IMG/VR virus record: IMGVR_UViG_3300025066_000007
Source: a virus
Taxonomy: Duplodnaviria > Caudoviricetes
Length of the DNA: 64,000 bases
Direction: 5' to 3' (one strand)
Under the pieces are notes generated by a model that had not been told where the DNA came from, searched no databases, and worked only from the letters and a program-made list of their open reading frames with translations. The position numbers and the translations under genes are program-made. Position 1 is the stretch's first letter; each line of letters starts with the position of its first letter. Below, in pieces: positions 25,236 to 46,375 of the stretch.

Positions 25236-25667
25236 CTAAGCTATTCTTACTGTTATAGAGCTTTCTATCTTATCTAATGATTGAGTTGCTACTGAAATAA
25301 ATATGTTATACAATCTCGGATCAGCTTTGTCTCTCGTAACTTCTAAGCCCAAGATATCTACAATAGTTTCTCCAGGAGATAGCGATTGTCTTCTAGACTG
25401 TGACCGCTGAAGAGACATTAAATTTCTGAGTGCAGTTCTTGCAGATGACTCTATATCTAAAGATATAATCCTCTCGTCAACATAGCTTCCTATCTGGAGC
25501 TTTCCAACGTGGCTTCCATATTTCGGATGAAATTTATTATCACCCAAACTTGTAAGCAAGATTTTTAAAATATCTTGCCTCAGCTTCGAGTTGCCAGCTA
25601 CGGTAGATAACGTGCCATCAGCATTTATTTTCAAATCTCCATTTTCTATTCTTAGATCAAAAGACAT
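25236..25667 (-). CDS. gp25/gpW-like baseplate wedge (sheath initiator) protein
   Basis: DLRIENGDL...KLRQDILKILLTSLGDNKFHPKYGS; 143 aa; precedes baseplate J. Confidence 0.88.
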   Translation of the reverse strand: MSFDLRIENGDLKINADGTLSTVAGNSKLRQDILKILLTSLGDNKFHPKYGSHVGKLQIGSYVDERIISLDIESSARTALRNLMSLQRSQSRRQSLSPGETIVDILGLEVTRDKADPRLYNIFISVATQSLDKIESSITVRIA

Positions 25668-25741: not shown

Positions 25742-27724
25742 CTAATCGTTATAGACAAATAGCTCCACGCCCTCACTGGAAATGATAAACCTTACTAGCT
25801 CATATCCGTCAAATGCGGCGTCGGAAATCTTTTGAACGGCGTCTCCCATGTTCAGCTCTAGCTGGAAGCCGTCGAAAAACCCTTTGGGAAATTCCGACTT
25901 CATATAGGCAAATTGCTGCTGGTTTAATAACGAGATCAGAACGTCAACAGGGACAGAGAAAAAGGCTATTATAAAAACCAAAACATCTATAGACCCAATG
26001 CCCTTAGAAACCCCCAGCTTGCTGCCAATGCCTTCTCTAGCCTTATCCGCCTTATCTGCAGCCCTAATGTTCCTTGAGTTTATATTGTCTATTTTAGAAA
26101 CAGCCCATCGCCTAGGAACGTCTATTGCCGCCAAAACAGCGCTCATAAGATGTGCTTCCTTTATAGCCGAGGATCTTACCGTGCCAGCTTGTAAGTCCAA
26201 AACTTCTGGAGAAGCATTTTCACCTAATAGCAAAAAAATTGAGTCTTCAATAGTTTTGATCAATTCAAATTGTCTTTGCTCTTCACTTTTTACGTTACCA
26301 TCGACGTGAGCGTTGGCCTGAGCATCACTCTTCTTTTCGTCTTTAGTCTTTCTTCCAGTTTTGACCTGCACAACATGCATAGACTTAACTTTGCTCTTAA
26401 TGTCAAGGGCCATTCCATATAAAGAAGAGAATAATCTAGTAATCAACAAGGCTTCTAACAGACCGAGCTGATCTCTCGTACCCTCATAGGTCATGCTCTT
26501 AGACGCAAGGCCAATCGAAGTAGGGGCCTGAGATCCATTTCGCGGATAAGTTACATGTGTTCCAGAGATTACGTCTAACCTTATTCTTATAACGGCTTCC
26601 AACAGAGTAGGCTTCATCTTCTTACTATTTATAACCCTTAGTGCTTTAGGCAGAAAAGGTTCAGCGACTATCTTCTCGCTTTCATTGATGCATTTTTCAA
26701 TTCTCTCATCTTGTATAGGCGGAAAGAGTAAATAGTGATATTTCCAAAAATTCTCGGATAAGTCAAGCCTTCTAACGCTAATGTCTTTTTTCCCCAAAAC
26801 TTCGCTGTCAAAGATTATTTCGGAAATAATCTCTGCAGGTACGCGAATAGTTGGCTCCAAAAGCCTTAGAGTCTCGATAAATATATTCCTTAAGATCATC
26901 GGCACTGCAAGCTCATTTACTTCATCTTCAGAAAGAGTCGAGCCTTCCCCAAAGTGCTCAGTCCACGACTTAAGGCTCTCTTTGCTCCGCTCTGTCAAAT
27001 CAGACTCTTCCTTTGTCGCTTCTACCGTTTTTGTATATATTCCTCTTGAAAGCTCTCCTGCATCTTTTGTCGCTTTATTCTTTATATTTTTTAGATTTTT
27101 TAGATCCAAAAGAATTTCTCTTAACAAGTCAAGTTGCTGTAGGCCCAAATCGGACAGCTTGGAAAACGGATCGCTAGCCTTGCTAAGGCTATATATCTCA
27201 TCTCCAAGAACTTCTGGACGACTATTCTTTCCAAGCTGCCTTACATCAAGCCTTCCGGCAGTATACTGCTCTTTGTTTAACCCGGTCTTTTTCTTCGCGC
27301 CGCTAGCAGTTACATAAGTAAGTCGAACGTTATCCTGAATATTTGCCGAGGACGGCATTCCCAGCATCCTGAAGAAAGCATTCTCATATGATTCTAAGAC
27401 CGACTCTGAATTTACAATCTCATTGAAGTTAAGATTCTCTCCTTCTACAGTCGGAACTTCTTTCGCTAATTCAAAGGGCAAAAATGATGATCTAATTTTA
27501 TTCAGCTCTGCAAATAATGTTCCAAAGTTTTCGCCTATCTCTGAAAACATCTTCTCGTATTCATCGCCCTTGGACTCATGCAGAAACGGATCTACATTAT
27601 ATCTTCCCTCTAAAGCCCCAATTGCTTCTTGCAATGCAGTTCCAAGAAATGTCTCTTCGCTCACATTTCCGGTCGAAGATGCCAGCCCAATAAGTTCTCC
27701 TATCGTATTTAGAATATCTGCCAT
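25742..27724 (-). CDS. Hypothetical alpha-helical virion-associated protein (660 aa)
   Basis: Long ORF coupled to the upstream gene (TAA-A-ATG); no recognised motif; hydrophobic stretch GSIDVLVFIIAFFSVPVDVLISLL. Confidence 0.55.
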   Translation of the reverse strand: MADILNTIGELIGLASSTGNVSEETFLGTALQEAIGALEGRYNVDPFLHESKGDEYEKMFSEIGENFGTLFAELNKIRSSFLPFELAKEVPTVEGENLNFNEIVNSESVLESYENAFFRMLGMPSSANIQDNVRLTYVTASGAKKKTGLNKEQYTAGRLDVRQLGKNSRPEVLGDEIYSLSKASDPFSKLSDLGLQQLDLLREILLDLKNLKNIKNKATKDAGELSRGIYTKTVEATKEESDLTERSKESLKSWTEHFGEGSTLSEDEVNELAVPMILRNIFIETLRLLEPTIRVPAEIISEIIFDSEVLGKKDISVRRLDLSENFWKYHYLLFPPIQDERIEKCINESEKIVAEPFLPKALRVINSKKMKPTLLEAVIRIRLDVISGTHVTYPRNGSQAPTSIGLASKSMTYEGTRDQLGLLEALLITRLFSSLYGMALDIKSKVKSMHVVQVKTGRKTKDEKKSDAQANAHVDGNVKSEEQRQFELIKTIEDSIFLLLGENASPEVLDLQAGTVRSSAIKEAHLMSAVLAAIDVPRRWAVSKIDNINSRNIRAADKADKAREGIGSKLGVSKGIGSIDVLVFIIAFFSVPVDVLISLLNQQQFAYMKSEFPKGFFDGFQLELNMGDAVQKISDAAFDGYELVRFIISSEGVELFVYND

Positions 27725-27725
27725 T

Positions 27726-30700
27726 TTAATTCTCTAATTTCGTTCCGAATGTTTGAGGCGATGGCTTAGATGACTTCGCGCTATTTTCTCTGTCCTCATC
27801 TCCATAGCCGACTCCAGAAGTGCTTACTGCCGGGACAAAGAGAACTGTTAAGATTCTGTCGACTTTCGATAAAGCTCCGGGGGCAAATTCCTCACTTGCT
27901 TCTGCGACAGTAATTGTAGAATCATCCACACAATCAACCTCTACCTCTGCAGCCTCCACTCTTGGATCCACTATTCCTCGGTCGGTAACCGCCTGGACAA
28001 CGGTTGAGCATATTGTGGCTCTTATTTGAACTTTTCCTGCTGCAGGAGCAGTAACCGCGAAGGTATACTCTCCACCTTCTTTTTCGAAAATAACAGAAGA
28101 ATCTTCGGAAGTTGCAGCGACTAGCTCTGCCCCTCCCGTCTCATCCTTTAGAAAGTCAATTTTGATAGAGTCTGTGAGGTCAAGCGCTGGAGCCAAAACT
28201 TCATCATAACAATCTCTTGGAATTATCTTGACGATGGCCTTACTCCCTACCGCTACTGTTGCCGAATCACCTATTCCGGAAGCATACTCCATAGCCCCTG
28301 TTATTTGAGGAAACCCTGCAAGCTCTTCATCGAACTCTAGCTCATCAACTATATCGAAACCAGCTAGTGTTGCAAGATCCTCCTGCTCTGGGTTCACAAA
28401 TTCTGCAAGAGCAGTTTCATCATCATCATTCTCAATCTTAAAAGAAGTATTCAATGGATTTATTACAAATCCGCAAATATTGTCTACCTCATCTTCATAA
28501 CATTCTTTAAGTGTGTTGTACTGAGCAACTACATCTTGAACGGAAATCTGACTGGGAATCTTTCCGAGTTCTAACGAATTCCTTATCTTTGGAATTATCC
28601 CAATTGGAATTCCCTCGGAGTCCTCTTCTTCACTATGAAAGAAGCTTAAAAAGGCCTCAAGACAATCTGTAAGGGTTCCGATGCTATCCTCTATCTTGTC
28701 AGGCTCTGTAAAGCCAGGAAGATCGAGAAGAAGTTCCGTTGGGCCAGACGCACCACATGCTGCTGCAATATCTCCAGATAACTGACGCATATCCACCACA
28801 TAAAGCCTGGGGAAGTCAAAGACATTAATCGTATTGGCAGCCCTTGTTATGGCGTCAATGTCCGCTGGTGAACCTCCAACATAATCGTAGTCACCTACAG
28901 CAGTTCCATCTGCAAAAAATTCGAAAGGCTGATCAGCACTGCCTGCAATTGCATTATAATTGGCTTGCTGCCAAATTAGTATCTCTCCAGCATTAATTTC
29001 ATGATCATTCTCAAGAGCCTCAAGAGAGGCAGCCTGGGTTGAGGCGGGATCGGGATTCAGCTCTGCAAATGACAGGTATATTTCTCGGCCCTCTACCGTA
29101 AAGGCTTTCTTGGGCGCAGTTGGAAAGTTCATCATTTTGGCGTGAATAGCAGTTATTGCAGGAACTCCGTTCACATCCTCAACTATAATTCCCCCCTGAC
29201 CAGTACCGGGCGCTTCGACAAAATAGATATTAAACTCGTCATCTATCAAGGCGATCATTGGGATTGATCCGAATGTCTTGGTCACTTCAACCGGAGTAAA
29301 TTCGGCAGATAAAGTATCAGGGTTTACTCCAGGCTCTTGAAGTTCAAATGTTACAGTTAGCGGCTTAGGCTGGTAGGTTCTAGCTCCATTTAAATCGGCC
29401 CCTCGTTCTAAAAAGAATCCTCCAGTTGCATCTTTGTCGGACGCCCCATCAATTGGAGAGACAAAGCCTATGTCATCCATATCTCCTGCTATCTTCAGAG
29501 AGTTGCCGTCTGGCTTCAAAAAGCTAGGAGGAGAATCCAATGTTTGTAAATTATCTATAGTCTTTTTGTCGAAAAATGGAGCGAAAAATGGAATAAAGGC
29601 ATGTGGAGCAGTTTTCCCACTCTCATTAAATTCAAACCAAACCATTCTCGGGTCAGGTCCTGTGAAGATTGCGAACTCCTTTATTGATCTTGAAAATGAA
29701 AGTCCAAAAGTTCCCTCAAAGTCTCCTCCATTAAACCTTAGGCTTTGGTAATTAACGTTATCATGCTCTCCGTTTCCATCTAAGTCTCCCTCGAAAAAGC
29801 CTCCCTCTTCAATTAAAATATTGTCTCCCGTCAGACTGCTCCTTATCCCGGGCAAAGGCCTTCCGCCAAATCCGGTATTGTCAGATACAATTTCAACACC
29901 GGAACCTTGCTCTGATACTTCCGATAAGATACTTCCAAGATCAAAAATTGCTGGAGGGGTATTCCCTGCCGAACCTACGTCATCAACCGGAAGAGTAGTG
30001 TACGTTTGAGCCATAGGAAGAAGCGCATCCGGAACTATTCTTCCGGCCGGAACAACCTTGCTCATGATTAATCCGGCCAATTGAGATGGATCTATACAGG
30101 CCTCTTCATCGGCGTCTGTTTTAATCTGACATGGGAATGCGAAGGTTAAACTTAGTAGCTCTAAGAATAAGGCCAGGATATTAAGAATTGGATCCAAAAC
30201 AGTAAGATCGGCCTCTAGGCTCGCAAGATGCTCACTAATCGTTTCCTCAAGAGCTATTATAGCAGGGTAGTTCCTCTGCTCTACTGCGTTTTTAATTGCA
30301 GTGGATATTTCATTAATTGCGTTAACAGTACTCAAGACCTTCAGGATGATGCAAAGAAGCAATTCGATAACGTGAAGAACGAGCGCCAATAACATTGCCG
30401 GGACTGATAGTTGCGGAAGCAATAGAATCAAATCATACAAGCACAAGAATAATCTGATTATGGCGAAAACAAGAGCTATCGGATTAAGCAGAGCACAGAT
30501 AACGTCTATGATGCAGAATATAACTTTAATCGGAACAAGCAAGACCTTGAAATTTCTTAACTGCAGAGCCAACTCTCCAGTTAAGTGAAACGACATATCG
30601 CAAAAGCTTTGAATGAACTCCTTAGGAACATTCGCCTTGTCTAAGATTACAGACGTAAACTTCAGCGGCCTATCAGACAGCTTCTCCTTTAAATCCGTTG

Positions 30701-33700
30701 GTAAGCCGCGCTTGTTTCTTGACCCTCCATCAATGCTGTCTCCAATCTTCTTATCTAAATCTATTGCAATATCGTTACCTATTTGGCGGGCAACCTGTAT
30801 GTGCTTCTCGCTAGAGTTTGTTAACGCCAATGTAATGCAGTCATCCCCACCAAAGGCAGAGGTTTTTGACAAATTCGGGGCCTTAACTTTAAACTTTAGA
30901 TATATACTTTCTGGAGTAATCTCAAGGATCTTGATACGCCTTCCGCCCAGCTCTATCTTTGTATTTCTGGTAGCCCCCTCTGCTACTATGTAGAATACTT
31001 GTCCTGATTTTAATACGAATTTAGAGAAGGGCTTATCCCCACTTCCTCCGGCTAAATGGTCTGGAACATATTCATCGCCACCATCTCCAATAATCCTAAT
31101 TATCTCTGGAACATTAAATTTAATTGCAGATGTTTGCCCAAAGCGGAAATCCAAAACAAGCTTTGCCTTCGTAGCATCGTCGCTCATGTCGATAAACGAA
31201 GTTGGAATAGATGATTCTTTGTCTATAAAAATATTCTTAATATTAACTCGACTAAAGTCGCTTTCTCTCGGCCCCATAGCAGAAGCGCTTTGCTCTAATC
31301 CTTCGCTTATCTGTCCTGCGAGCCCGGTTAAGCTTGATAGCTTGTCAGTCAACGTCTGGATCAGCGCAAGTCCGTCCTCAAGCAATCCTAGGGCATCGTT
31401 TGCGGCCCCTACGACGGCTCCTGTGGCCTCCGCAGCGCCTGCGGCTCCAGCGGCCAACGTAGAGGCTGCGCTGTCGTCTGCGGATACCTCAGACGTTCCG
31501 GGCACGGCAGCGTCGGCTGCTGTTAACGCAGAATTATATGCTGCTTCTTTCTCTTCGATAGCCTGAATCTTTCCGTCAATCTCCTGAATCTTCTCATCAG
31601 AAAGAAGACCCTCCGGGTCATCCTTACTTGCCTTAAGGGCTTCCTTCTCTGCATTTAAGTCCTTCAGCTGAGCGCTTCCCTGCTCTCTTATCCTTTCTAT
31701 TCCAGCGCTTACATCAGATAGCGACAAGAGAACCTCTGAAGAGCCACTTGTATTTATTTTTACAATCTCTCCAAATGCCTTATCTCTTTCGGGACCTATT
31801 GTTATATCTGAGAGAAGCATTCCGTAAGCTATCTTTTCTTCGCCACCTTCTATCTTAGGCTCTTCTGCTCCAAAGACTAAATCTACACTTGGAAATATCT
31901 TTATTGGATTTGGAAAGTTTAGATAAGAATTTACGTTAGAAGCGTCATCGTTCCCAATGTATGAACCTGTTCTTAAAGGGATTGGAGAAAGATTTAAACT
32001 AGCCGGAAAAATATTTGGAAATGGAACGAATCGATTAGTCCCATCATCTTTTTCAATAATCTTAGGAATAAGCTTATTCGCTTCTTTCGCCAAAATATTA
32101 TCTTCAGAAGAGAAGAGTCTCGACTTAACGATGGATTCGTCTATTATTTCAGAATCTTCCTCTGTATCTTCAAAATCAACAGTAAGCCTCTTTCGAACAA
32201 CGGAATCATAGGTAACATTAAAGCGTCTATCCTTCTTTGTTACAATAATATCAAGAAAGCCTGTATCGCTCACCCCTCTTATGTCTATATAGTTTGCAAT
32301 GAGCTTATTTTTTTCGCCCCTAATAAGGCCAAGTCTTTTGCCTCGTATCTTCTTTACGTTAGCCCCAGATCCTATAGAAACTTTGTAAGATCTGGATATT
32401 CTGGGCTCGTCACTATACCCTTCGAAAAGGACTGATAATCTGGCGATCTTATTGTTTGTTCTTAGTTCGCTTTCATCTTCAAGCTCATCAATATTTATTC
32501 CGCTTATATAATCTCGATACGGCTCAAGAGAAGACCTAGTAACATTTGAAAATGATTTACTATTGCCTATTCCTACGTTTGACAGCTTCATTGCCAAAGC
32601 GTTTACATAGGGAGGGTTTATAAAAGCAGGCTTCTCTCCATTTTTGCCAGTTGAACCAATCGGAATCATAGCAAAATCAGAAGCCCCAAGAGAGATCTTG
32701 TCGTGAATTCGTTTGTTAGAAAGAATAATATAAGCTCTGGGGTATTCTAGAAATTCTAGATCTCCCTCTCCTCGATCCTCTCCAACCAATTCATTAAACC
32801 TGCTTATGTTGAGCTTTGCTCCAGGCCCTGGAAACTTAAGCTTTACCTTATGGTTGTTGATCCTAGAAAAATCATCGGTTCCAAACACATACTCCATTTT
32901 TGTCGGAACAATAAGGGGCGTACTCGATAGGGTTGTCAAAGCCAGAGGAGAGGAGGAGGGGTTATCTGCTGTCCAGCCGATGTCCTCTTTTAAAATGGAG
33001 AGATTATTTCTTTCAGAATCATTTAGTATTCCGATATATCCATATAGAGGCAGACCCTCTCTGAATACAGGTCTGCTGTATTTTAATATAATCTCTGCGC
33101 TTGCCTCTCCGTCCATTAGCAATGGAATTGAGTCTATTTCTTTCCCAAATCGCGGCGCTGTCAGTCCATCTAGAACTTTAAATTCGATCTTGTCCTCAGG
33201 TCTTGCGGGGAGATCTGTAAAGTCAGGAAAAATTGCTATTGGCCCAAGATTATCGCTAGCTGACCCATCTTCCGAAACTACTTGGATATAATAAATCCCA
33301 GTTTTATTTTCAAACAAAGATTCAACTAGCGGTTCAGAAGAAGAGATAATTATGCCTGAACCTTGAGAGCTTATTGCTATATCGCTAACATTTATTTCCT
33401 CAGATGTATTTAGATCAGAAAATATTCTAACAGAAGCATCTGTGACCTCCCTATCAAGGGATAGGGTCATGCTTGTGACATCCGAGCCCAATAGCAAGCC
33501 GCCAGCGAACCCGTCTGGAGTAACGCCCTCTATTATGCTGACCTGAGGAGAAATTGAGATATTCTCCCCAGGCACGCGAACTATCTGCCCATATTCGTCC
33601 ATGGCATAGAGGGCGAACTGATGCGTCACGCTTGGGCTATATCCGCTCAAGCCTCTCTTGCTCAATCCGTCATGATCATAGGGAACGCTTAAATCGATAT

Positions 33701-35324
33701 ATTCGCCTGAAGCCTTAGGCTCAAGGCGGATCCAGTTAGCGGGAACTTGGCTTATATCGGTAAGAATATTTGGACAGACAGACACCATAAGGCTTTTTGC
33801 TGAGCAGATCTTTTGATTAAACCACTTTCTATCATTCTTAATGTAAGTCTCTTTCGAAAAGTCCCTGGAACCCATTAGCATATCAGGCCTATTTAGCTCT
33901 CCTAACAAACTTGTAATATTCGGCACCCCAATTGCATTCAAAGATACAGACAACGGTAATCCAAGAGACTTCTGAGCGTAATAAGAAGAAGGATTTGTAA
34001 TGATAGGTGATCCAGAAGACAGTAGATATGCACTTAGGTCGCTAAAGATGCTCTCTACGCTTGTTCCGTGCTCGCTATCATCAAAGCTAATGATAGGCTT
34101 TAGATCCTTATTTTCTGGGTCGAAATATGGAAGAGATATAACTGGGGCAGTGAACATTTCTACTGCGCCCGAAATCTTTACGAATTCTTTTGGAAGAGAA
34201 GGACTTTGCTTGGGGGAAATGATTGGGGATAGAAAATACTTAAAAGAAGAATCATGTCCATCGGCAAAAATAGAGATAGAAACAGGAGCCTTGTTTAGAG
34301 GGTAGCCTTTTTCTCCGTCTTCTATTTTAATATCAGGAGGAGCGGCATACTCAAACGCTAGCGCCTTATAGTCCTTAGTCTGCTTGTTTGCCAGCTCTAA
34401 GCAAAAGAACAAGGAGTCTTCTTCGTCTTCAACTTCTAAGTTTGTAATGCCAGAGCTATTTCTTCCGGATATATCTGGAGTTTTTATGTATATATCGTTG
34501 TCTATTGCAGTGCAATAACCGACAATATCCTTCGATCTTTTTCCTTCTAGGAATTTTTCTTCAATATGAAAAATAGGGAATAAATCTAACAGAATTTGAG
34601 CAATTTCATCAGGATTAGAGCTTAGCTCCTGACTCTTACTCTGTATTCTTAGTTCCCTAAACGTTTTGCCAGATAATCCAACGTAATTGCTTAGACCATA
34701 ATCTTCATTTTCAAAATCTTCAGGATCAAAAGTGAGAGCCTCTAATATGGTCTTAACTTTATCAAATGGAATAAACTTTAATCCACCAATTTTGGACATA
34801 GAAGAGAGGCGAGACTTTCCACTTTCTGAAATAGAATTATTTACATCAGAAACACCACTATAAGAGCCCCTTAGGCTGCTAAGATAAACAGTTGGGATCT
34901 GATTAGAATTAAGCCCAGTCGTTATGTTGGGCATATTTTGAAGAGCTTTGTTTATTGCAACTCTAGCGGCAGTTAAGACAGAAAGCCTCTGCTCTCCACT
35001 GCCAGCTTTTACTGAGCCAATTCCGGTCGAAGAAATATATTTCTCCAGAGCCTTAACTGGTGCATCATATCTGCTTGACTTCAGCGGACCAAGAGGCTTT
35101 AGCTCGTTTCCGAGCGATAGCTTCATAATGGCTCCACCGATAAGAGGCACTACATCTTCTTCGGAAGAAGCTTTCGGAAATAATACCTCATATTTAGCGC
35201 CTTCCAATCCAGCGCTACTTACAAACTCATCTTCTTCTGAGCAATTTATGCTTATTTTAGAAAAGTCTTCAGACTGAGATATTGGGCCGATTAAATCTAA
35301 TAAAATTTTTGAAGAACTAGCCAT
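27726..35324 (-). CDS. Giant (2532 aa) virion protein with Ig-like beta regions, a coiled-coil/Ala-rich linker and a multi-helix hydrophobic domain
   Basis: ORF between the spike gene and gp25; hydrophobic block LLVPIKVIFCIIDVICALLNPIALVFAIIRLFLCLYDLILLLPQLSVPAMLLALVLHVIELLLCIILKVL at ~30320-30560. Confidence 0.6.
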   Translation of the reverse strand: MASSSKILLDLIGPISQSEDFSKISINCSEEDEFVSSAGLEGAKYEVLFPKASSEEDVVPLIGGAIMKLSLGNELKPLGPLKSSRYDAPVKALEKYISSTGIGSVKAGSGEQRLSVLTAARVAINKALQNMPNITTGLNSNQIPTVYLSSLRGSYSGVSDVNNSISESGKSRLSSMSKIGGLKFIPFDKVKTILEALTFDPEDFENEDYGLSNYVGLSGKTFRELRIQSKSQELSSNPDEIAQILLDLFPIFHIEEKFLEGKRSKDIVGYCTAIDNDIYIKTPDISGRNSSGITNLEVEDEEDSLFFCLELANKQTKDYKALAFEYAAPPDIKIEDGEKGYPLNKAPVSISIFADGHDSSFKYFLSPIISPKQSPSLPKEFVKISGAVEMFTAPVISLPYFDPENKDLKPIISFDDSEHGTSVESIFSDLSAYLLSSGSPIITNPSSYYAQKSLGLPLSVSLNAIGVPNITSLLGELNRPDMLMGSRDFSKETYIKNDRKWFNQKICSAKSLMVSVCPNILTDISQVPANWIRLEPKASGEYIDLSVPYDHDGLSKRGLSGYSPSVTHQFALYAMDEYGQIVRVPGENISISPQVSIIEGVTPDGFAGGLLLGSDVTSMTLSLDREVTDASVRIFSDLNTSEEINVSDIAISSQGSGIIISSSEPLVESLFENKTGIYYIQVVSEDGSASDNLGPIAIFPDFTDLPARPEDKIEFKVLDGLTAPRFGKEIDSIPLLMDGEASAEIILKYSRPVFREGLPLYGYIGILNDSERNNLSILKEDIGWTADNPSSSPLALTTLSSTPLIVPTKMEYVFGTDDFSRINNHKVKLKFPGPGAKLNISRFNELVGEDRGEGDLEFLEYPRAYIILSNKRIHDKISLGASDFAMIPIGSTGKNGEKPAFINPPYVNALAMKLSNVGIGNSKSFSNVTRSSLEPYRDYISGINIDELEDESELRTNNKIARLSVLFEGYSDEPRISRSYKVSIGSGANVKKIRGKRLGLIRGEKNKLIANYIDIRGVSDTGFLDIIVTKKDRRFNVTYDSVVRKRLTVDFEDTEEDSEIIDESIVKSRLFSSEDNILAKEANKLIPKIIEKDDGTNRFVPFPNIFPASLNLSPIPLRTGSYIGNDDASNVNSYLNFPNPIKIFPSVDLVFGAEEPKIEGGEEKIAYGMLLSDITIGPERDKAFGEIVKINTSGSSEVLLSLSDVSAGIERIREQGSAQLKDLNAEKEALKASKDDPEGLLSDEKIQEIDGKIQAIEEKEAAYNSALTAADAAVPGTSEVSADDSAASTLAAGAAGAAEATGAVVGAANDALGLLEDGLALIQTLTDKLSSLTGLAGQISEGLEQSASAMGPRESDFSRVNIKNIFIDKESSIPTSFIDMSDDATKAKLVLDFRFGQTSAIKFNVPEIIRIIGDGGDEYVPDHLAGGSGDKPFSKFVLKSGQVFYIVAEGATRNTKIELGGRRIKILEITPESIYLKFKVKAPNLSKTSAFGGDDCITLALTNSSEKHIQVARQIGNDIAIDLDKKIGDSIDGGSRNKRGLPTDLKEKLSDRPLKFTSVILDKANVPKEFIQSFCDMSFHLTGELALQLRNFKVLLVPIKVIFCIIDVICALLNPIALVFAIIRLFLCLYDLILLLPQLSVPAMLLALVLHVIELLLCIILKVLSTVNAINEISTAIKNAVEQRNYPAIIALEETISEHLASLEADLTVLDPILNILALFLELLSLTFAFPCQIKTDADEEACIDPSQLAGLIMSKVVPAGRIVPDALLPMAQTYTTLPVDDVGSAGNTPPAIFDLGSILSEVSEQGSGVEIVSDNTGFGGRPLPGIRSSLTGDNILIEEGGFFEGDLDGNGEHDNVNYQSLRFNGGDFEGTFGLSFSRSIKEFAIFTGPDPRMVWFEFNESGKTAPHAFIPFFAPFFDKKTIDNLQTLDSPPSFLKPDGNSLKIAGDMDDIGFVSPIDGASDKDATGGFFLERGADLNGARTYQPKPLTVTFELQEPGVNPDTLSAEFTPVEVTKTFGSIPMIALIDDEFNIYFVEAPGTGQGGIIVEDVNGVPAITAIHAKMMNFPTAPKKAFTVEGREIYLSFAELNPDPASTQAASLEALENDHEINAGEILIWQQANYNAIAGSADQPFEFFADGTAVGDYDYVGGSPADIDAITRAANTINVFDFPRLYVVDMRQLSGDIAAACGASGPTELLLDLPGFTEPDKIEDSIGTLTDCLEAFLSFFHSEEEDSEGIPIGIIPKIRNSLELGKIPSQISVQDVVAQYNTLKECYEDEVDNICGFVINPLNTSFKIENDDDETALAEFVNPEQEDLATLAGFDIVDELEFDEELAGFPQITGAMEYASGIGDSATVAVGSKAIVKIIPRDCYDEVLAPALDLTDSIKIDFLKDETGGAELVAATSEDSSVIFEKEGGEYTFAVTAPAAGKVQIRATICSTVVQAVTDRGIVDPRVEAAEVEVDCVDDSTITVAEASEEFAPGALSKVDRILTVLFVPAVSTSGVGYGDEDRENSAKSSKPSPQTFGTKLEN

Positions 35325-35360: not shown

Positions 35361-37757
35361 TTACTCACCAACAGAATCCAGCAGGCATTTGATTTGGTCC
35401 GGAACTCCCTCAATCGTGGCATCTGGTGTATCCGTAGATACAGGATCCTTATAAGTTTTTCTCGGAGGCCTATTCCCCTCTCTAACTTCAACGCTTTGTC
35501 CCGCAAGAATTAGCTTAGACGTGCTTTCTAGCGCAATATCTCCATCATTTCTAATCACCATAGGGCTTCCGGGATTCATTCCTGCAATAACCAAGCCATT
35601 CTTGCTTATAGATATGATATAATCAGAAGCATTTACGCTATCGACCTCTTCTCCGAGGAACCCTTTATGATTAACATTTACCCTTAATTCGAATCTTCCT
35701 TCATTAAATTGATCGCCATTAGTTCCTCCGATATTAAACAACGTATCACCATCAGTCTGTACGACTAAGCTTCTATTGTTTTTATCTTTGCCAAACCATG
35801 CGATCATACTGCCTGCTGCATCTAATATAATGCTTTTTTGATCGTTATTATCTGACCCCACAGATGCTTCTATCGATCCTTCGAAGTTTAGATTGGCGCT
35901 CTTGCCACCCGGAGCTTTTCTGGCCTCTTTTGACTTGTCGATATTCGTAGAGATTAAATCGCCCTGCTCACTTTTACTTACAGCAAATGAATTAGAATAC
36001 TGAATATTAACTCTGTCTTCATTTTCATTAAACTCCTGTGTGAAATCTTGTCCCGCGACAAGCACGCCTCCTCCGGGGTCTATAGCGGGAGGGCCGGGAT
36101 AAACACTCACTGCCGCCATATAATTAACTTGTGCTGAATCTTCTCCGTCTAATCCAAAAGTTTCCGATGCTCTCTCAAAAGATTTATTGATCGAATTGCC
36201 GGGAATATAGCCTGTGCATTTTGCATTTTGAAATGGAATCAAAACGTTATTTATTGTATTCGCAATAAGCATTTCTGCTGCAGCATATATATTGTGATGT
36301 TTAGTTGGATTTACTCGAATACTCTCTGAGTCTGCAGCAGTCTCAGATCCAAGGCCTTCGAAATAATTGTCATCATTCGAATACCTAATTCCGGTAAAAC
36401 GAGTAGCTCCGCTTTCCTCCTCCTGAATGGCGTCCACTGCAGAACTAGCTGGAAACAACACTCCGCTCTCTGCATCTCGCAATGTAATCGGAATCTTTTC
36501 CTTTTTTCTAAAGCCATATGTGGTTTCAATTTTATCTGTTTTTTCAGAATAAAATTCTGCGAAATTAGGATAAGGAATATTTCCAGTATTTGATGTAGCT
36601 GGAATATTTGCCTTCAAAGCCCCCTCTTTATCAATGGACAAAACGAAGTTGTCTCTGCTATTCGAAGTCTTGCTTGACAAGCTATTCGTAGAAACCTGAA
36701 AGTGATAACCGATGCCTCTTCTGGACTTTAGTCTCCCTTCTTCGTATCCTAAGATGAGATCTGTGCCAGAAGGATGACCCAGGGAATCTCCTATCGATAC
36801 TCTGCCATAATTTGAATCAAGCACCTCTCCTCTTGAATTTACAACGTTTCCTGCAATTACTTCAACAAGCTGATGCGGAGCAAGGTGTAGGGCATTTTCT
36901 TGAGAAATGGCTCTTACTTCTTTTTTTGTTGAAAATTTAGAAGTACTATTAGTCCTTACCAGAGAAGCCTCTTGGTCCCACCCTCTAAAATAGTCTGCCT
37001 CAGATATCTCATTTACAACAAGCCTATACTCAGATAGCGCAGGATTTCTTTTTCCTCCGAACAAGCTTACGGGGGCTGCCTTAAATCCGGGGAAAATACC
37101 TCTTGTAATTCCGTAGTCTAAATTATAAGTTAAAAGATCATTTCCTACATCTGCAACTCCGCTCTTTTGGGTAAAGCCGCTTGGAATTCTAACGACTTCT
37201 CTCGAAGAGATTCTATGTGCAGAACTAACCATCTGGACAGAGTCTGAAACGACAGAAAGGTTTGTTTTAGTGGAATTTGTTTTTTCAATAAAGATTCCAT
37301 TGCTAAGCTCATTCCCCAGGAAGATTCCCGTTCCAGCTCCTCCAGACCCAGAGAGATATAACTCAGAGCCACCGCCTCCAAAGACCTTTACCTCTCCAGA
37401 TTTCATGTTCTTTATGGGATACTCAGACCTTCCGGCGAGAGCATTCTCAGATGGCGTTCCTCCGGCTTCGCTCCCCCTATCTGTTTTGGGGACAATTCTA
37501 ATCGCCTGCACAATGCCTTTCCCGCCAGGGTATACTCTTGTGCATATAACTGTATCCCCAATTTCCGGATGCTGATAAATGCCTGCGTCGCCAACTCCTC
37601 CGTAATAAACTGGAGGAATAACATAAGGATCATCGTTGTCAGTTGGATCTGTACTTATTATAAGGTCACCAGTTACCAAGTCTATATCCTTGATAAGAGC
37701 CTCAAATACCTTAAAGCTTGAAAGCTGACCCTCTACTTCTTCTGGGGAAATCGACAT
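35361..37757 (-). CDS. Baseplate central spike (gp5/gpV/VgrG-like): OB-fold plus beta-helix
   Basis: N-terminal OB-fold pattern (IPPVYYGGVGDAGIYQHPEIGDTVIC), Gly-rich beta repeats (SGEVKVFGGGGSELYLSG), C-terminal GDIALESTSKLILAGQSV; directly follows the hub gene. Confidence 0.72.
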   Translation of the reverse strand: MSISPEEVEGQLSSFKVFEALIKDIDLVTGDLIISTDPTDNDDPYVIPPVYYGGVGDAGIYQHPEIGDTVICTRVYPGGKGIVQAIRIVPKTDRGSEAGGTPSENALAGRSEYPIKNMKSGEVKVFGGGGSELYLSGSGGAGTGIFLGNELSNGIFIEKTNSTKTNLSVVSDSVQMVSSAHRISSREVVRIPSGFTQKSGVADVGNDLLTYNLDYGITRGIFPGFKAAPVSLFGGKRNPALSEYRLVVNEISEADYFRGWDQEASLVRTNSTSKFSTKKEVRAISQENALHLAPHQLVEVIAGNVVNSRGEVLDSNYGRVSIGDSLGHPSGTDLILGYEEGRLKSRRGIGYHFQVSTNSLSSKTSNSRDNFVLSIDKEGALKANIPATSNTGNIPYPNFAEFYSEKTDKIETTYGFRKKEKIPITLRDAESGVLFPASSAVDAIQEEESGATRFTGIRYSNDDNYFEGLGSETAADSESIRVNPTKHHNIYAAAEMLIANTINNVLIPFQNAKCTGYIPGNSINKSFERASETFGLDGEDSAQVNYMAAVSVYPGPPAIDPGGGVLVAGQDFTQEFNENEDRVNIQYSNSFAVSKSEQGDLISTNIDKSKEARKAPGGKSANLNFEGSIEASVGSDNNDQKSIILDAAGSMIAWFGKDKNNRSLVVQTDGDTLFNIGGTNGDQFNEGRFELRVNVNHKGFLGEEVDSVNASDYIISISKNGLVIAGMNPGSPMVIRNDGDIALESTSKLILAGQSVEVREGNRPPRKTYKDPVSTDTPDATIEGVPDQIKCLLDSVGE

Positions 37758-37759
37758 AC

Positions 37760-40700
37760 TTACACGACTTTCCTATCCAACATTCCAGAGGGAATATTTA
37801 TAATCCCGACTTCTACTATGCTGGCCTTGTATTCTTTTGTAAAGCTAAAGGCAGTTACTTCTTCTCGAATGTCAGCCCATCCTCCTTGACTTGGCCCTCC
37901 CTTTGGAAAAATTCCTGTTATCTGCTCTTCAGACAAGCCATCTAATTGTTCATCGTGCTTAATTGCGGCCAAGAGGGTCCTGTCCAAACATTGAATCTGT
38001 CCAACTGAATTTTCGTCTGTCTTCTTAAAGAAGGAGACTTGCTCAATAATCTTCTTTGCAGGTATTTTTGAAACAGGAATGCTATTAGGTAGACGCATAG
38101 GCTTCAGTGATCTCGTTTCCGGAATCAGATCATCTCCTCCAGAAAATGGATTGCTTTGGGCAACTTGAGACGGAGATTCTAGCAGAGACCTTATGGCTGC
38201 CATCTTCTTTTTAGCCTCTTCGATCCCGCTTTCATCATCTTCGTTAAGAGCAAACCCTCTAATCAGAACGTATCTGTCTCCAGACAAGCCGCCCATTAAA
38301 TCCAGCATCATATTTGTAAATCTTATTTGGTTATCATTAAATGCCAATAATTTGGCGGGCTTTACAGCGCTAGACGGAAAGACTATCGCAGAGTCTGGGC
38401 TCAATGGACGATAATTATCATCAGTCTCACTCGATCTGTATATCAAGGATGGATCCTCAATGAAATTAGAGACCATTTGTTGACCAATAATATCCAATGG
38501 GCCAGGAATATAGTCTCCAGCCGGATGGCCGTATTCTAAGTCTAGCTTTGTCGTATAAGAGCTTCCAAAGCTGAAAGTATGAGAGACACTCTTTACGTAA
38601 TAGAGAAGCCCTTTGCTTGGAATGAAGACGGTATCTCCGGGCTGATAGAACTCATTTCCAGAAATAGTAACAGACCCCATATTTACGGCAAACTTTTGCA
38701 TTCCAAGCTTTAATATCGCATAGGGTTTTGCCTGTCCTTCTGTATCGCTTATAAAAGGAATAGATTGTTTGGCAGGTTTATATCCATACTGTCTCCATAA
38801 ATCGAAGTCTGTAGCTCCAGCCCAAAAGTATAGCCCTTCAAAGCCTCTGTTTAATCCGTCTCCAATAAGTGGAGCATTACCACTTATATCAAGCCTAGTA
38901 AACTCAGGAGGGTTTTCGGAAAAAGTTGAACTTATTATAAACTCATCTTTTAGAATGAATCTTTTTCCGGAGCCATATCCTAAAAGATTTCTGGTGTCAT
39001 CTTCAATCAAGTGATCATATACAGCGCCCTCAGACATTTTCCCGGTTAAAATATCCGATCCAGTCTGGAGTGCATTTGCGCTTTTTTCCAGAAAATCTAC
39101 AACCTTATCGTTAATATCCAGCTCTATGTCAGAGCCTTCTCCAGTTTGCAGGAATGTTTCTATTTCGCTCAATTCTTTTTGCTTGACTAAGTTTGCCTGA
39201 AGCATAGAAACAAATGAGTCCCTGTTGGAGATGGCCTGCTTCAGCTTTCCTAGCAAATCCTCTTCAGAAAAGAATGGATCGCCCTCCTCAGAGGTGACAT
39301 TTGTAAAATAAGAGAAGTGCTTATCATCGAAAGAATCTCCTGAGCCGATAAGGCCTGAGGCTGGATCTCTTCCGAATTGTTTTTTAAATGAATTTCTAAT
39401 ATTATTTAAATCAGATGCCGAAAAATGAACAGCCGGATATCCAGAATTGCCCCCAACTTGAGTTTGGGAGTCATTTACCAAACTCATCTGCTCCTGAACG
39501 ATGGGATCAAATGTTCCCAGGAGCTTGTCCGTATTTCCTCCTAAGACATCGCCCTTCTGCTGAAAGCTGGCAGATAAGTCCAGGCCATTATCCCCGGGCC
39601 TTCTAGTGCTAATTGGATGATTTGTCTTAAAGAGAGAAAGATTCTTTACGTCAGATGATCCTCCTTTGAATTCGTTTGGCCCTGGCTCGTTGTAATAGGA
39701 GCTATTATCTTTATGTATATGAACCCCAAAGAAAGGAAGAGAGGAAGCGCCTCCAAAGCTCATGTTTGGAATCAGATTTCTATCTGGATACTTCCCTAGC
39801 AAAAGGGCAATTAAAGCAATCTTTATGTTTAGAGCATGAACCTGAAGATAGATTCCCTCGATTCTTGTTTGAAATAGATCAGTTACAAATCGAGGAATAA
39901 TATTCTTATTCTCATTAGTTTGTCTTCTTATAGCCTCCCTTAGAATGCTGAGAGGCACTCTGTTCCAGAGCGGAGGCCTAAATTCCAAATGTCCCTGAGA
40001 ATTGCAAAAGAATTCTAAGTCTAAATAATTAGACGCCTCATTACATAGCTGCCAAGAATCTTTGAAGAGACCATCAAACAGCTTCCATCCACTACGATTT
40101 AGACTTAAGATGAATGGACGGATGTCTGCAGAGTCATACTGATCAGAGACCATAAAGAGATTCCTGTCTCTATTTAGCCTTACATCTTCGATCTTCCTTT
40201 GAGCTCCCACTAACATCATGGCTCTAGTTACATCGTTATTCTCTTCTTGATCTCCTGATATCGGCAAGTTTGCGGCACCAGATAGGCTTATCTGGATGCC
40301 GATTTGCTCCTCAGAAGTTAGAGCGTTTGTAGATGTCGTGCCAATCTTAATCTGTTCTCTAATGGCTTCATCTATTGCCTGTATTTCCGAAGAAAGAGTG
40401 GACGCAAAGATCCCGCCCTGGAGGGTCGGCCCAGAGCTTTTTTCTATATCTGAAATCTTTCTTCTAAGAAGCTTCTTTCTGGCTTGCAAGCTTTTTATGT
40501 TATTGTTTGCTACATCTCTGCGGCTAGCATTATTTAGCATTTGTTCTGTTGAAGCAGAGTTCATAGTCAGCATTCTGTAAGGCTGAAAATTGCCATAATA
40601 GTTATTTTGCTTTCTAACCGTATCCAAAACACCTGTTAGCGGGTCTAACGGATTGAGCCTTGTGGACTTATCTAGCTTATTATGAGCAGCCAACGCCTGC

Positions 40701-45928: not shown

Positions 45929-46354
45929 TTAATCTATATTTTCTTTTGCAATATTAAGAAGGCCAGCCAAGTTTTTCGGCAGACGAACATTTCGAGCGTC
46001 TTTAGCTCTTTCATTACCATATAAATTAGTATTTTTATATTTATCCTTGATTGCCTGGACTATATGATCGTCCTTGAATGCTCTATTTAGAATCTGAGCC
46101 TCAAACTCAGCATCGTCCATAAACCTGGGATCTTCGATAGATTCTCTTGAGTCCCGAATCTTCTTAACAGCTTCGGCATTCCAGAACGAAGCAAGATACT
46201 CGGTTATGCTCAAGTCATAATCGTATTGATCTTTTTCATCCTGATAAAACATTTGAGCGTACCAAGACCACTGATCTCCTGTTATATCAAGAAATCTCGG
46301 ATCATCAGAGCTGCAGTTCCAAATTTTGCAGAGTTTCCATCGGAGCCTACTCAT
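45929..46354 (-). CDS. Tail assembly chaperone, downstream (T-like) ORF; probably expressed as a -1 frameshift fusion
   Basis: Lies in the -1 frame relative to 46366..46854 with no stop between the slippery site and its ATG; the ATG sits inside a 12-bp hairpin; RWKLCKIW...DPRFLDITGDQWSWY. Confidence 0.7.
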   Translation of the reverse strand: MSRLRWKLCKIWNCSSDDPRFLDITGDQWSWYAQMFYQDEKDQYDYDLSITEYLASFWNAEAVKKIRDSRESIEDPRFMDDAEFEAQILNRAFKDDHIVQAIKDKYKNTNLYGNERAKDARNVRLPKNLAGLLNIAKENID

Positions 46355-46375
46355 AGGCTCCGATGCTATTTTTTT
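46338..46375 (-). promoter_or_regulatory. Programmed -1 ribosomal frameshift signal: A AAA AAA heptamer plus 3' stimulatory hairpin
   Basis: Minus strand GAC ATA AAA AAA TAG CATCGGAGCCTA-TGAG-TAGGCTCCGATG; perfect 12-bp stem with a 4-nt loop; same gene position as the lambda G/GT frameshift. Confidence 0.78.

What the first reader, a model, noticed from the sequence alone, without database searches (positions are those of the whole stretch)
27726..35324. Giant protein in the spike-tip gene slot carrying a translocon/pore-like hydrophobic helix bundle
The gene directly after the gp5-like spike, where PAAR tips or VgrG-linked cargo genes often lie in contractile systems, is 2532 aa, and no small PAAR gene is visible. 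Around aa 1575-1735 (~30130-30600) it has several consecutive ~20-residue hydrophobic, Cys-studded helices (FCIIDVICALL, LFLCLYDLILLL, MLLALVLHVIELLLCIIL, ILNILALFLELLSLTFAFPC). These are preceded by a coiled-coil and Ala/Gly-rich linker (~31280-31680), and there is no signal peptide. This architecture is reminiscent of membrane-inserting translocators or pore-forming effectors. It may be a spike-delivered device that forms a membrane channel for DNA entry, or a toxin-like cargo (inference).
Basis: partly seen in the sequence, partly recalled or inferred. Interest (0 to 1): 0.72.

Follow-up and report, generated by a model that had tools for sequence, protein, structure and literature searches.

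The report
Conserved membrane-type helix domain beside phage spike
The giant gene after the tail spike of this uncultured marine jumbo phage carries a very conserved four-helix, membrane-type domain, found next to the same kind of spike gene in every related phage checked; it most likely inserts into the host's inner membrane during DNA injection, though that is inferred.

Summary
The ORF at 27726-35324 (minus strand, 2532 aa) has four strongly hydrophobic helices at aa 1593-1727. They are as hydrophobic as, or more hydrophobic than, the membrane helix of the phage T4 tape measure protein.

This roughly 160-aa domain is by far the most conserved part of the protein, and the constraint acts on the protein, not the DNA. 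It is the only part shared with about 200 metagenomic protein clusters of 600-3000 aa.

In 64 of 64 IMG/VR loci with enough downstream DNA, a protein with this domain lies directly after a P0032-type (gp5/gpV-like) spike gene. In 57 of 57 it is followed by a homologue of the next gene (P0033), then by gp25-like and gp6/J-like genes. It is therefore a core tail gene, not variable toxin cargo.

The likely tape measure proteins of this clade have no membrane-like helix (66 of 66).

With a deep alignment, AlphaFold2 gives a confident model (pLDDT 83): a four-helix hydrophobic bundle with an amphipathic hairpin. It has no significant match in Pfam, annotated PHROGs, PDB, BFVD or the ESM Atlas, apart from weak hits to tape-measure PHROGs.

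Best reading (about 45%): a membrane-inserting or channel module encoded outside the tape measure protein. Virion location and membrane insertion are untested.

The parts
27726..35324 (-). Gene X (protein P0001, 2532 aa), the giant protein of the finding
   Evidence: ORF and translation. RBS and start. 29 full-length metagenomic homologues of 2076-2992 aa. No Pfam or PHROG hit.
30054..30605 (-). Conserved hydrophobic helical domain, aa 1574-1757, the only part shared by all size classes of the family
   Evidence: Column identity 0.78-0.91. hhalign against the ~700-aa family: probability 99.6%, E 9.5e-25, over aa 1592-1748. Profile search: 205 clusters. AF2 pLDDT 83.2.
30486..30548 (-). Hydrophobic helix 1 (aa 1593-1613), with Cys1610 invariant, an acid at 1607 in all sequences and Cys1604 in 84-96%
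   Evidence: KD 2.70. Acid at 1607 in 100% and Cys1610 in 100% of 127 sequences. Helix limits from AF2.
30423..30482 (-). Hydrophobic helix 2 (aa 1615-1634), starting at the Asn1614-Pro1615 turn, with a near-universal basic residue at 1624 and Cys1628
   Evidence: Base at 1624 in 98% of sequences. Polar positions 1617/1620/1624/1627/1631 lie on one face, coherence 0.75. Hessa sum -0.4 to -0.9.
30345..30416 (-). Hydrophobic helix 3 (aa 1637-1660), the first half of a 46-residue helix, starting at invariant Pro1637
   Evidence: KD 2.82, Hessa sum -2.1. AF2 helix 1637-1682.
30201..30344 (-). Amphipathic, acidic helical hairpin tip (aa 1661-1708) between hydrophobic helices 3 and 4
   Evidence: About 40% polar positions. 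AF2 helices 1637-1682 and 1686-1708 with pLDDT above 90.
30144..30197 (-). Hydrophobic helix 4 (aa 1710-1727)
   Evidence: KD 1.97. Polar stripe at 1711/1715/1718/1721-22/1725/1729, coherence 0.67.
30096..30134 (-). Pro-Cys ... Cys motif closing the domain (aa 1731-1743)
   Evidence: Cys1732 invariant in 127 sequences. Cys1743 in 96% of the large and 81% of the small family members.
31290..31712 (-). Coiled-coil and Ala/Gly-rich linker (aa ~1205-1345)
   Evidence: Composition. Only coiled-coil-type noise hits in PDB, including a tape measure protein at E 0.54.
30882..31106 (-). Probable Ig-like beta-sandwich (aa ~1407-1481)
   Evidence: AF2 block pLDDT 77-84, all-beta. The only Foldseek matches of that model are filamin/SbsC/Big-type Ig domains, about 87 residues aligned, E 3e-3 to 0.1. 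Assigning those matches to this stretch is my inference.
28011..28265 (-). Probable C-terminal Ig-like beta-sandwich (aa ~2354-2438)
   Evidence: AF2 beta strands, pLDDT 62-83. Same Foldseek matches and same caveat.
35361..37757 (-). P0032 (798 aa), the gp5/gpV-like central spike gene directly upstream
   Evidence: Atlas feature search: Phage_base_V and Gp5_OB clusters, score 0.94, 183 shared features. 111 homologues. No Pfam or PDB sequence hit.
25742..27724 (-). P0033 (660 aa), the conserved downstream partner gene Y, with one moderately hydrophobic helix at aa ~575-600
   Evidence: KD 2.60. Homologous to the gene after X in 57 of 57 loci and colinear with the ~555-aa neighbour of the small family.
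44006..45925 (-). P0031 (639 aa), the probable tape measure protein, with no membrane-like helix
   Evidence: It sits after the G/GT-type chaperone pair. Atlas features match TMP_3 and PhageMin_Tail clusters, 0.93-0.94. Maximum KD 1.38, Hessa sum +5.8. No PHROG or Pfam hit.
45929..46854 (-). Two small ORFs (162 and 141 aa) with a slippery A-run, a stop and a 12-bp hairpin at 46338-46375: a probable G/GT tail chaperone pair
Evidence: Sequence read directly.
37760..42883 (-). P0034 (1707 aa), in the hub position between the tube initiator and the spike; identity inferred from gene order only
   Evidence: No family hit apart from an unannotated PHROG. The same position is occupied by a 1500-1770-aa gene in relatives.
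42906..43991 (-). Tail tube initiator-like gene
   Evidence: PF23980, E 1.1e-5, just below the curated cutoff.
25236..25667 (-). gp25-like sheath initiator
   Evidence: PF10934, E 3e-6; phrog_2669, E 1.2e-14.
21910..25227 (-). Baseplate J / gp6-like wedge protein
   Evidence: PF04865, E 6.7e-24; phrog_6, E 4e-46.

Best explanation
Gene X encodes a core tail or baseplate protein of a large clade of uncultured marine myophages, many of them jumbo phages.

Its functional heart is a new, extremely conserved ~160-aa domain. The domain has four membrane-length hydrophobic helices. An amphipathic acidic hairpin lies between helices 3 and 4.

I propose the following.
- In the virion, the domain is kept shielded at or in the central hub and spike region, possibly with the conserved partner Y (P0033).
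- After sheath contraction and loss of the spike, the domain inserts into the host cytoplasmic membrane.
- There it anchors the tube tip and/or oligomerises into the conduit for DNA.

This is the job that the transmembrane and helical-bundle part of the tape measure protein does in T4. The tape measure proteins of this clade lack such a helix.

An even number of membrane helices would let both huge flanking regions stay on the virion side, so only the short hairpin would have to cross.

**Shown here:** the domain, its membrane-type character, its conservation and its fixed gene position.

**Inferred:** virion location, membrane insertion, oligomeric state and channel function.
For: 1. **Hydrophobicity.** KD 2.70, 2.82 and 1.97 and Hessa sums from -2.1 to +2.5 for P0001. 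The validated T4 gp29 membrane helix scores 2.2 and +2.0 on the same scripts.
2. **Family-wide pattern.** Across 127 sequences the helices show 'inside-out' amphipathicity: 2 of 20, 5 of 21, 4 of 23 and 7 of 21 positions are polar. In helices 1, 2 and 4 they line up on one face (coherence 0.67-0.75). An acid at 1607 is present in all sequences and a base at 1624 in 98%.
3. **Structure.** AF2 with the deep alignment gives pLDDT 83.2 and helices 1574-1613, 1615-1634, 1637-1682, 1686-1727.
4. **Conservation.** The domain is the most conserved part (0.78-0.91 against about 0.5). Synonymous sites are no more conserved than elsewhere (same-codon fraction 0.35-0.55 against 0.39-0.58), while amino-acid identity is 0.67-0.91 against 0.35-0.68.
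5. **Only shared part.** It is the only region common to proteins of 600-3000 aa.
6. **Core-gene status.** It is directly downstream of the spike gene in 64 of 64 loci with enough DNA. Y follows in 57 of 57. The same gene order holds in all four size classes.
7. **Tape measure proteins lack the helix.** In 66 of 66 clade tape-measure-like proteins the maximum KD has median 1.19 and maximum 1.71. For X the median is 2.74 and the minimum 2.24.
8. **Only annotated PHROG hits.** 9 of 69 full-length small-family proteins and 12 of 127 domain segments match tail length tape measure families, weakly (E 1e-4 to 1e-2).
9. **Virion-type domains.** The only Foldseek matches of the C-terminal-half model are Ig-like domains. 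By established knowledge these are typical of virion-exposed phage proteins.
10. **Precedent.** T4 TMP carries a membrane helix plus an amphipathic bundle, partitions to membranes and is proposed to form the DNA conduit (bioRxiv 10.64898/2026.03.06.709160).
Against: - There is no direct evidence that X is in the virion or ever meets a membrane.
- The C-terminal-half model is of low confidence (pLDDT 57.8), so burial of the helices by neighbouring domains cannot be judged.
- A tape measure protein without a hydrophobic helix is not unique to this clade: phage G's 2893-aa TMP also has none (KD 1.45), and phage G has no X-like gene. The 'replacement' argument is therefore suggestive only.
- The PHROG tape-measure hits are weak and could reflect composition.
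- Helices 1 and 4 carry charged residues and have positive Hessa sums.
- Y's helix is only moderately hydrophobic across the family (KD above 1.9 in 17 of 51).
- No structural relative among known channels was found.
Confidence: 0.45

Rival explanations
1. Purely structural core. The hydrophobic helices are an oligomerisation bundle, for example three or six copies around the hub axis. The bundle is permanently buried inside the very large baseplate and never enters a membrane.
For: - The virion form must bury these helices in any case.
- Extreme conservation on all helix faces within the giant subfamily fits tight protein-protein packing.
- The fold search finds only generic helical hairpins and bundles.
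- The baseplate of this phage is built from giant proteins of 3182, 1529 and 1707 aa.
Against: - Across the wider family the non-stripe positions vary but stay hydrophobic, while the few polar positions are the conserved ones. That is the membrane-protein pattern, not the soluble coiled-coil pattern.
- Hydrophobicity equals or exceeds that of a proven phage membrane helix.
- Four helices of about 20 residues bounded by invariant prolines match bilayer thickness.
Confidence: 0.2
2. Assembly-time membrane anchor. X inserts into the infected cell's inner membrane through the four helices while it is being made. It nucleates or tethers hub and baseplate assembly there, and may or may not stay in the finished virion.
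For: - In the ~700-aa relatives the domain starts at about residue 60, like an N-terminal multi-pass anchor that the host's membrane-insertion machinery would recognise.
- Its position among hub and baseplate assembly genes.
- The T4 TMP fragment also goes to the membrane fraction when expressed.
Against: - In the giant forms about 1560 aa precede the first helix, which is awkward for co-translational targeting.
- The Ig-like domains and the size of the protein argue for a virion component.
- Nothing here tests this reading.
Confidence: 0.12
3. X is itself the tape measure protein, or a second one, of this phage.
For: - A TMP-like Ala/Gly-rich coiled coil at aa 1205-1345.
- Weak tape-measure PHROG hits of the domain in relatives.
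- TMPs of more than 2500 aa exist, for example phage G gp183.
Against: - The canonical TMP slot after the G/GT chaperone pair is filled by P0031, whose features match TMP families.
- In the AF2 model of aa 1340-2532 the regions outside the hydrophobic domain are largely beta strand or undefined, not one long helix. The N-terminal 1340 aa were not modelled.
- Family members range from 600 to 3000 aa while the clade's TMP-like proteins stay at 545-871 aa.
- The gene lies after the hub and spike genes.
Confidence: 0.05
4. Spike-delivered pore-forming toxin or effector cargo, analogous to T6SS VgrG/PAAR-linked membrane effectors.
For: - Position directly after the spike gene.
- Membrane-type helices.
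- T6SS prePAAR effectors carry membrane helices that need chaperones (my own knowledge, not tested here).
Against: - Strictly conserved core gene, 64 of 64 loci.
- The hydrophobic domain is the most constrained part.
- No PAAR, colicin, Rhs or enzymatic toxin domain.
- A phage has no evident use for killing the cell it is infecting.
Confidence: 0.03

Closest known systems
Transmembrane and helical-bundle region of tape measure proteins (T4 gp29 TMP_TM/TMP_HBD; also T5 pb2, lambda gpH, HK97 TMP)
   Same: - Tail-module protein with membrane-length hydrophobic helix or helices next to an amphipathic helical bundle.
- Comparable or higher hydrophobicity.
- Proposed to insert into the inner membrane and form the DNA conduit after the spike leaves.
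- The only annotated PHROGs hit, weakly, by the domain are tape measure families.
   Different: - Encoded in a separate gene after the hub and spike, not in the TMP, which is P0031 here and lacks such a helix.
- Four helices rather than one predicted helix.
- Embedded in a largely beta-rich protein of variable size (600-3000 aa).
- No significant sequence or fold match to any solved TMP.
- No match to phage G's TMP.
Podophage ejection proteins (T7 gp14/gp15/gp16; P22 gp7/gp20/gp16)
   Same: Virion proteins thought to build a trans-envelope channel for DNA. A T7 tail-complex chain appears among the helical-hairpin fold matches (7ey7_A, Z 9.7, 97 residues, rmsd 4.1), which is within the noise for helical proteins.
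   Different: Those proteins are stored in the capsid and encoded in the head or core module. X is in the baseplate gene block of a contractile tail. No sequence similarity was found.
PAAR spike-tip proteins and T6SS prePAAR effectors with transmembrane domains
   Same: The gene slot immediately after the spike gene. Hydrophobic helices that would need shielding before delivery.
   Different: No PAAR motif in X or anywhere in the 70.6-kb record. X is a conserved core gene, not variable cargo. No toxin domain.
Bacillus phage G tail module (nearest cultured relative by baseplate J, 30% identity over 37% of the protein)
   Same: A jumbo myophage with gp6/J-like wedge and sheath genes in a similar block.
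   Different: Phage G has a 2893-aa TMP directly after its chaperones. It has no X-like or other strongly hydrophobic protein in the tail block.

Membership tests
Tail length tape measure protein | Gene directly downstream of the tube gene and the G/GT frameshifted chaperone pair | tested here: not met
   That slot is occupied by P0031 (44006-45925), after the slippery A-run and hairpin at 46338-46375. X lies after the tube initiator, hub-position and spike genes.
Tail length tape measure protein | Predominantly one long alpha-helical or coiled-coil protein | tested here: not met
   In the AF2 model of aa 1340-2532 the regions outside the hydrophobic domain are largely beta strand or undefined. 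Hydrophobic and coiled-coil helices are limited to about aa 1205-1345 and 1565-1757. The N-terminal 1340 aa were not modelled.
Tail length tape measure protein | Match to a TMP sequence family (Pfam TMP_2, TMP_3, PhageMin_Tail; TMP PHROGs) | tested here: inconclusive
   P0001 itself has no hit. Of its relatives, 9 of 69 and 12 of 127 give weak hits (E 1e-4 to 1e-2) to phrog_305, phrog_5493 and phrog_4200 over the hydrophobic domain.
PAAR spike-tip protein | PAAR motif domain (PF05488) | tested here: not met
   No Pfam hit in P0001 even at E up to 5. No PF05488 match in six frames of the 70.6-kb record.
Pore-forming colicin / VasX-type or Rhs / Tc-type effector | Colicin pore-forming, Rhs/YD-repeat or Tc domains | tested here: not met
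   No such Pfam family at E up to 5 on the four overlapping pieces of P0001. Foldseek and VIA searches listed no colicin-type domain among significant matches; all matches were within noise.
Integral membrane helical bundle (generic) | Several helices of about 20 residues with transmembrane-range hydrophobicity and polar residues confined to a narrow face | tested here: met
   KD 2.70, 2.82 and 1.97. Hessa sums -2.1 to +2.5. Calibrated on the T4 gp29 helix. Polar-face coherence 0.67-0.75 in helices 1, 2 and 4 and 0.47 in helix 3. Helix limits from AF2 at pLDDT 83.
Integral membrane helical bundle (generic) | Demonstrated residence in a lipid bilayer | not testable with these tools
   Needs fractionation, liposome assays or cryo-ET. 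No dedicated topology predictor was available.
Phage virion structural protein | Detected in purified particles | not testable with these tools
   Only gene context and Ig-like domains argue for it. No cultured member was found in INPHARED.

The most novel reading that the evidence does not exclude
In a large, widespread clade of marine myophages (contigs up to 458 kb), the inner-membrane conduit or anchor for DNA injection is not supplied by the tape measure protein. It is supplied by a dedicated two-gene module (X with its four-helix domain, plus partner Y) encoded between the spike and gp25 genes. This would be a previously undescribed class of contractile-tail membrane-penetration protein. 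Its even-numbered helix topology would let arbitrarily large flanking domains (60 to 1680 aa upstream) stay outside the membrane.
Probability: 0.35. Interest if true: 0.75.

Novelty: new variant of a known kind. Interest (0 to 1): 0.6.

Why it matters
How contractile-tailed phages cross the cytoplasmic membrane is still being worked out. The current T4 model assigns the job to a membrane helix and bundle inside the tape measure protein.

This clade has tape-measure-like proteins without such a helix. It has instead a separate, strictly conserved, spike-adjacent protein whose only universal part is a four-helix membrane-type domain under very strong protein-level constraint.

If the domain is the membrane-insertion or channel element, three things follow.
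- The function can be moved out of the tape measure protein.
- There is a compact (~160-aa), well-defined module to test biochemically.
- A gene found in hundreds of uncultured marine phage genomes, with no entry in Pfam or in annotated PHROGs, gains an annotation.

The domain is also a handy marker for this phage clade.

Tried and rejected
**Family and sequence searches**
- Pfam and PHROGs on P0001, whole and in four pieces: nothing.
- tblastn of P0001 and of the small relative P0106 against 50,697 INPHARED phage records: no match.
- PDB sequence-profile searches with A1 and A5: only coiled-coil or designed-helix noise.

**Fold searches**
- Foldseek against PDB with the C-terminal-half model: only Ig-like domains.
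- Foldseek against PDB and BFVD with the domain model: nothing below E 0.5.
- VIA-align against 48,161 chains: best Z 9.8, generic helical hairpins (T7 tail chain, IpaB, YscO, designed membrane protein), below the stated noise level of about 13 for helical models.
- ESM Atlas by shape: TM at most 0.33.
- ESM Atlas by features: unnamed viral clusters only.

**Specific comparisons**
- hhalign of the domain against phage G's TMP: no relation.
- No X-like hydrophobic protein in the tail blocks of phage G or of the 485-kb uncultured phage LR745208.

**Genome and context searches**
- Scan of GTDB genomes: a single 2.6-kb contig binned with a Flavobacteriales MAG, so no prophage context.
- The window's own protein is withheld from the contig look-up.
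- The first atlas call failed on length.

**Not available**

**Spike gene**
- P0032 could not be confirmed as a spike by Pfam or PDB sequence searches, even with a 40-sequence profile. Only the language-model features support it.

**Considered and rejected**
- Nucleotide-level constraint or recent recombination as the cause of the conservation: synonymous sites are not unusually conserved.
Full report
**Setting**

The window is 64 kb of a 70.6-kb IMG/VR-type virus record. CheckV estimates it at 21% complete. All large genes lie on the minus strand and form a contractile-tail block, in this order:
- sheath (phrog_2839) and tube
- P0031 (639 aa)
- a tube-initiator-like gene (PF23980)
- P0034 (1707 aa, in the hub position)
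- P0032 (798 aa)
- the target P0001 (2532 aa)
- P0033 (660 aa)
- a gp25-like sheath initiator (PF10934)
- baseplate J (PF04865)
- giant distal proteins

P0031 has tape-measure-like features (Atlas clusters TMP_3 and PhageMin_Tail, 0.93-0.94). P0032 has gp5/gpV-like features (Phage_base_V and Gp5_OB, 0.94, 183 shared features). Neither reaches any Pfam, PHROG or PDB sequence threshold. The nearest cultured phage by baseplate J is Bacillus phage G, at 30% identity over 37% of the protein.

The ORF, its ribosome-binding site and its tight coupling to the next gene are as described.

Four hydrophobic segments lie at aa 1593-1613, 1615-1634, 1637-1660 and 1710-1727.
- Kyte-Doolittle 19-residue means reach 2.70, 2.82 and 1.97.
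- Simple additive Hessa sums run from -2.1 to +2.5 kcal/mol.
- I calibrated both scripts on T4 gp29. Its membrane helix, which takes a gp29 fragment into the membrane fraction (bioRxiv 10.64898/2026.03.06.709160), scores 2.2 and +2.0.
- Apart from the next gene P0033 (2.60), no other tail protein in the window exceeds 1.84. P0031 scores 1.38 and +5.8.

Six of the protein's 20 cysteines fall in aa 1601-1800. The Ala/Gly-rich coiled coil at aa ~1205-1345 is real.

**The domain is the conserved core of a large family**

Twenty-nine full-length homologues (2076-2992 aa, 32-68% identity) come from marine metagenomes, on contigs up to 348 kb.

Column identity is 0.78-0.91 across aa 1551-1750, against about 0.5 elsewhere. 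Stretches such as aa 1598-1637 are almost invariant.

The constraint acts on the protein. Against ten relatives, amino-acid identity is 0.67-0.91 inside the domain and 0.35-0.68 outside. The fraction of identical codons at identical residues is the same inside and outside (0.35-0.55 against 0.39-0.58).

A profile of aa 1540-1800 searched against 1.84 billion representatives found 205 clusters at E below 1e-3. They fall into four size classes:

| Size class | Position of the domain |
|---|---|
| ~2400-2750 aa | ~1400-1950 |
| ~2000-2280 aa | ~1200-1600 |
| ~1500-1630 aa | ~670-1080 |
| ~610-850 aa | ~60-250 |

Profile-profile comparison of the small class with the giant class gives 99.6% probability (E 9.5e-25) over P0001 aa 1592-1748, and nothing else. 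By BLAST:
- The 2000-aa class is colinear with P0001 throughout.
- P0089 and P0092 (~1560-1600 aa) are colinear from the domain to the C-terminus.
- P0100, P0101 (1513-1626 aa) and the 700-aa class share only the domain.

Across 127 sequences, Cys1610, Pro1637 and Cys1732 are invariant. An acid at 1607 is present in 100% and a base at 1624 in 98%. Cys1604, Asn1614-Pro1615, Ala1621, Leu1625-Phe1626, Cys1628 and Cys1743 are nearly universal.

**Fixed position in the genome**

Six loci covering all four size classes were read in detail. All show the order TMP-like, tube initiator, ~1500-1770-aa gene, spike-like, X, Y, gp25-like, J-like.

I then fetched 79 IMG/VR loci through the spike protein and searched them with an HMM of the domain.
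- All 64 loci with at least 3.3 kb downstream carry the domain in the next ORF on the same strand.
- The 15 loci without a hit all have less than 3 kb downstream.
- In 57 of 57 loci with room for it, the ORF after X is a P0033 homologue (jackhmmer E at most 1e-63). Nearly all of these have a conserved, moderately hydrophobic helix about 80-100 residues from the C-terminus.

The small form occurs on contigs of 301-458 kb as well, so protein size does not track genome size. In 66 of 66 complete TMP-like proteins of these loci (545-871 aa), the maximum KD is 0.75-1.71 with median 1.19. For X it is 2.24-3.55 with median 2.74.

**Structure**

The C-terminal half (aa 1340-2532, 24 sequences) gave a poor model (pLDDT 57.8). 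It has helices at 1565-1757 and otherwise beta domains. Its only Foldseek matches are filamin/SbsC/Big-type Ig domains.

With the 127-sequence alignment, the domain alone reached pLDDT 83.2, and above 90 over most helices. The helices are 1574-1613, 1615-1634, 1637-1682, 1686-1708/1710-1727 and 1746-1757.

Read together with the hydrophobicity profile, this gives a four-helix hydrophobic bundle about 20 residues long. From one side protrudes an amphipathic N-terminal helix half. From the other protrudes an acidic helical hairpin (aa 1661-1708). I could not inspect coordinates, so the packing is inferred from helix lengths and turns.

Family-wide, only 2 of 20, 5 of 21, 4 of 23 and 7 of 21 positions of the four helices are mostly polar. 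In helices 1, 2 and 4 they line up on one face (coherence 0.67-0.75). This 'hydrophobic outside, polar stripe inside' pattern is typical of membrane proteins, not of soluble bundles.

No significant structural relative was found in PDB, BFVD, a 48,161-chain exhaustive search or the ESM Atlas.

**Interpretation**

The data rule out variable toxin cargo and argue against X being the tape measure itself. They fit a core infection function that depends on a membrane-type domain located near the hub and spike.

The closest known mechanism is the T4 tape measure protein. Its membrane helix and amphipathic bundle are released after the hub leaves and are proposed to open the inner-membrane conduit. 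Consistent with that, the only annotated PHROGs touched by the domain are three tape-measure families. Those hits are weak: 9 of 69 and 12 of 127, E 1e-4 to 1e-2.

I therefore favour a membrane-insertion or channel module encoded outside the tape measure protein, at about 0.45. An even helix number would keep both large flanks on the virion side.

Caveats:
- Phage G also has a TMP without a hydrophobic helix, yet has no X.
- Virion location, oligomeric state and membrane contact are untested.
- The complex predictor was unavailable.

Rivals are a permanently buried structural bundle (0.2), an assembly-time membrane anchor (0.12), a tape measure (0.05) and an effector (0.03).

**Novelty**

This is a new domain family. 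It has no Pfam entry, no annotated PHROG, no cultured representative and no solved relative. It sits in a fixed slot of a widespread marine phage clade.

The proposed function belongs to a known kind, phage membrane penetration, but in a new genetic and architectural form.

The scan's earlier notes hold nothing on this protein or on look-alikes elsewhere.

Noticed in passing
window 25742-27724 (-): P0033 (660 aa, no family) is an obligate partner of the finding's gene. A homologue follows X in 57 of 57 related loci. It carries a conserved Gly-x-Gly...Asp...Ala-Leu-Phe/Trp hydrophobic helix about 80-100 residues from its C-terminus. Its function is unknown.
   Followed up: partly
window 46338-46375 (-): A slippery run A AAA AAA before a TAG stop is followed by a perfect 12-bp GC-rich hairpin, between the 162-aa and 141-aa ORFs. 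I used it only to place the tape measure gene.
   Followed up: partly
window 44006-45925 (-) and 66 homologues in L012-L090: The tape-measure-like proteins of this clade are short (545-871 aa), even on contigs of 300-458 kb, and have no hydrophobic helix. This implies tails of roughly 80-130 nm if the usual 1.5 Å per residue applies.
   Followed up: partly
L049:12178-19481: In one IMG/VR relative the X reading frame is interrupted. The stop-to-stop ORF holding the domain starts 2.7 kb after the spike gene, whereas near-identical relatives (L047, L048) have one ORF of about 2400 aa. This may be an assembly error or a frameshift.
   Followed up: no
L007 (CAYWDY010000350.1, 2661 bases): The only hit to the domain in 185,579 GTDB species genomes is a 2.6-kb contig binned with an uncultured Flavobacteriales MAG. 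This is a weak hint at the host group, or a binning artefact.
   Followed up: no
window 61481-61945 and 62133-62525 (-): Two small proteins upstream of the fibre-like genes have membrane or signal-like segments (KD 2.0-2.5). One has a weak Rz-like spanin PHROG hit (E 1.3e-3).
   Followed up: no
L003:9643-9996: One small-form relative has an extra 117-aa acidic helical ORF between the spike gene and X. It is not PAAR-like on reading its sequence.
   Followed up: partly
window 37760-42883 (-): P0034 (1707 aa), in the hub position, has no detectable family except an unannotated PHROG (E 1.4e-5). Its C-terminal ~120 residues look reminiscent of gpD/gp27-type hub ends on reading; this was not tested.
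   Followed up: no
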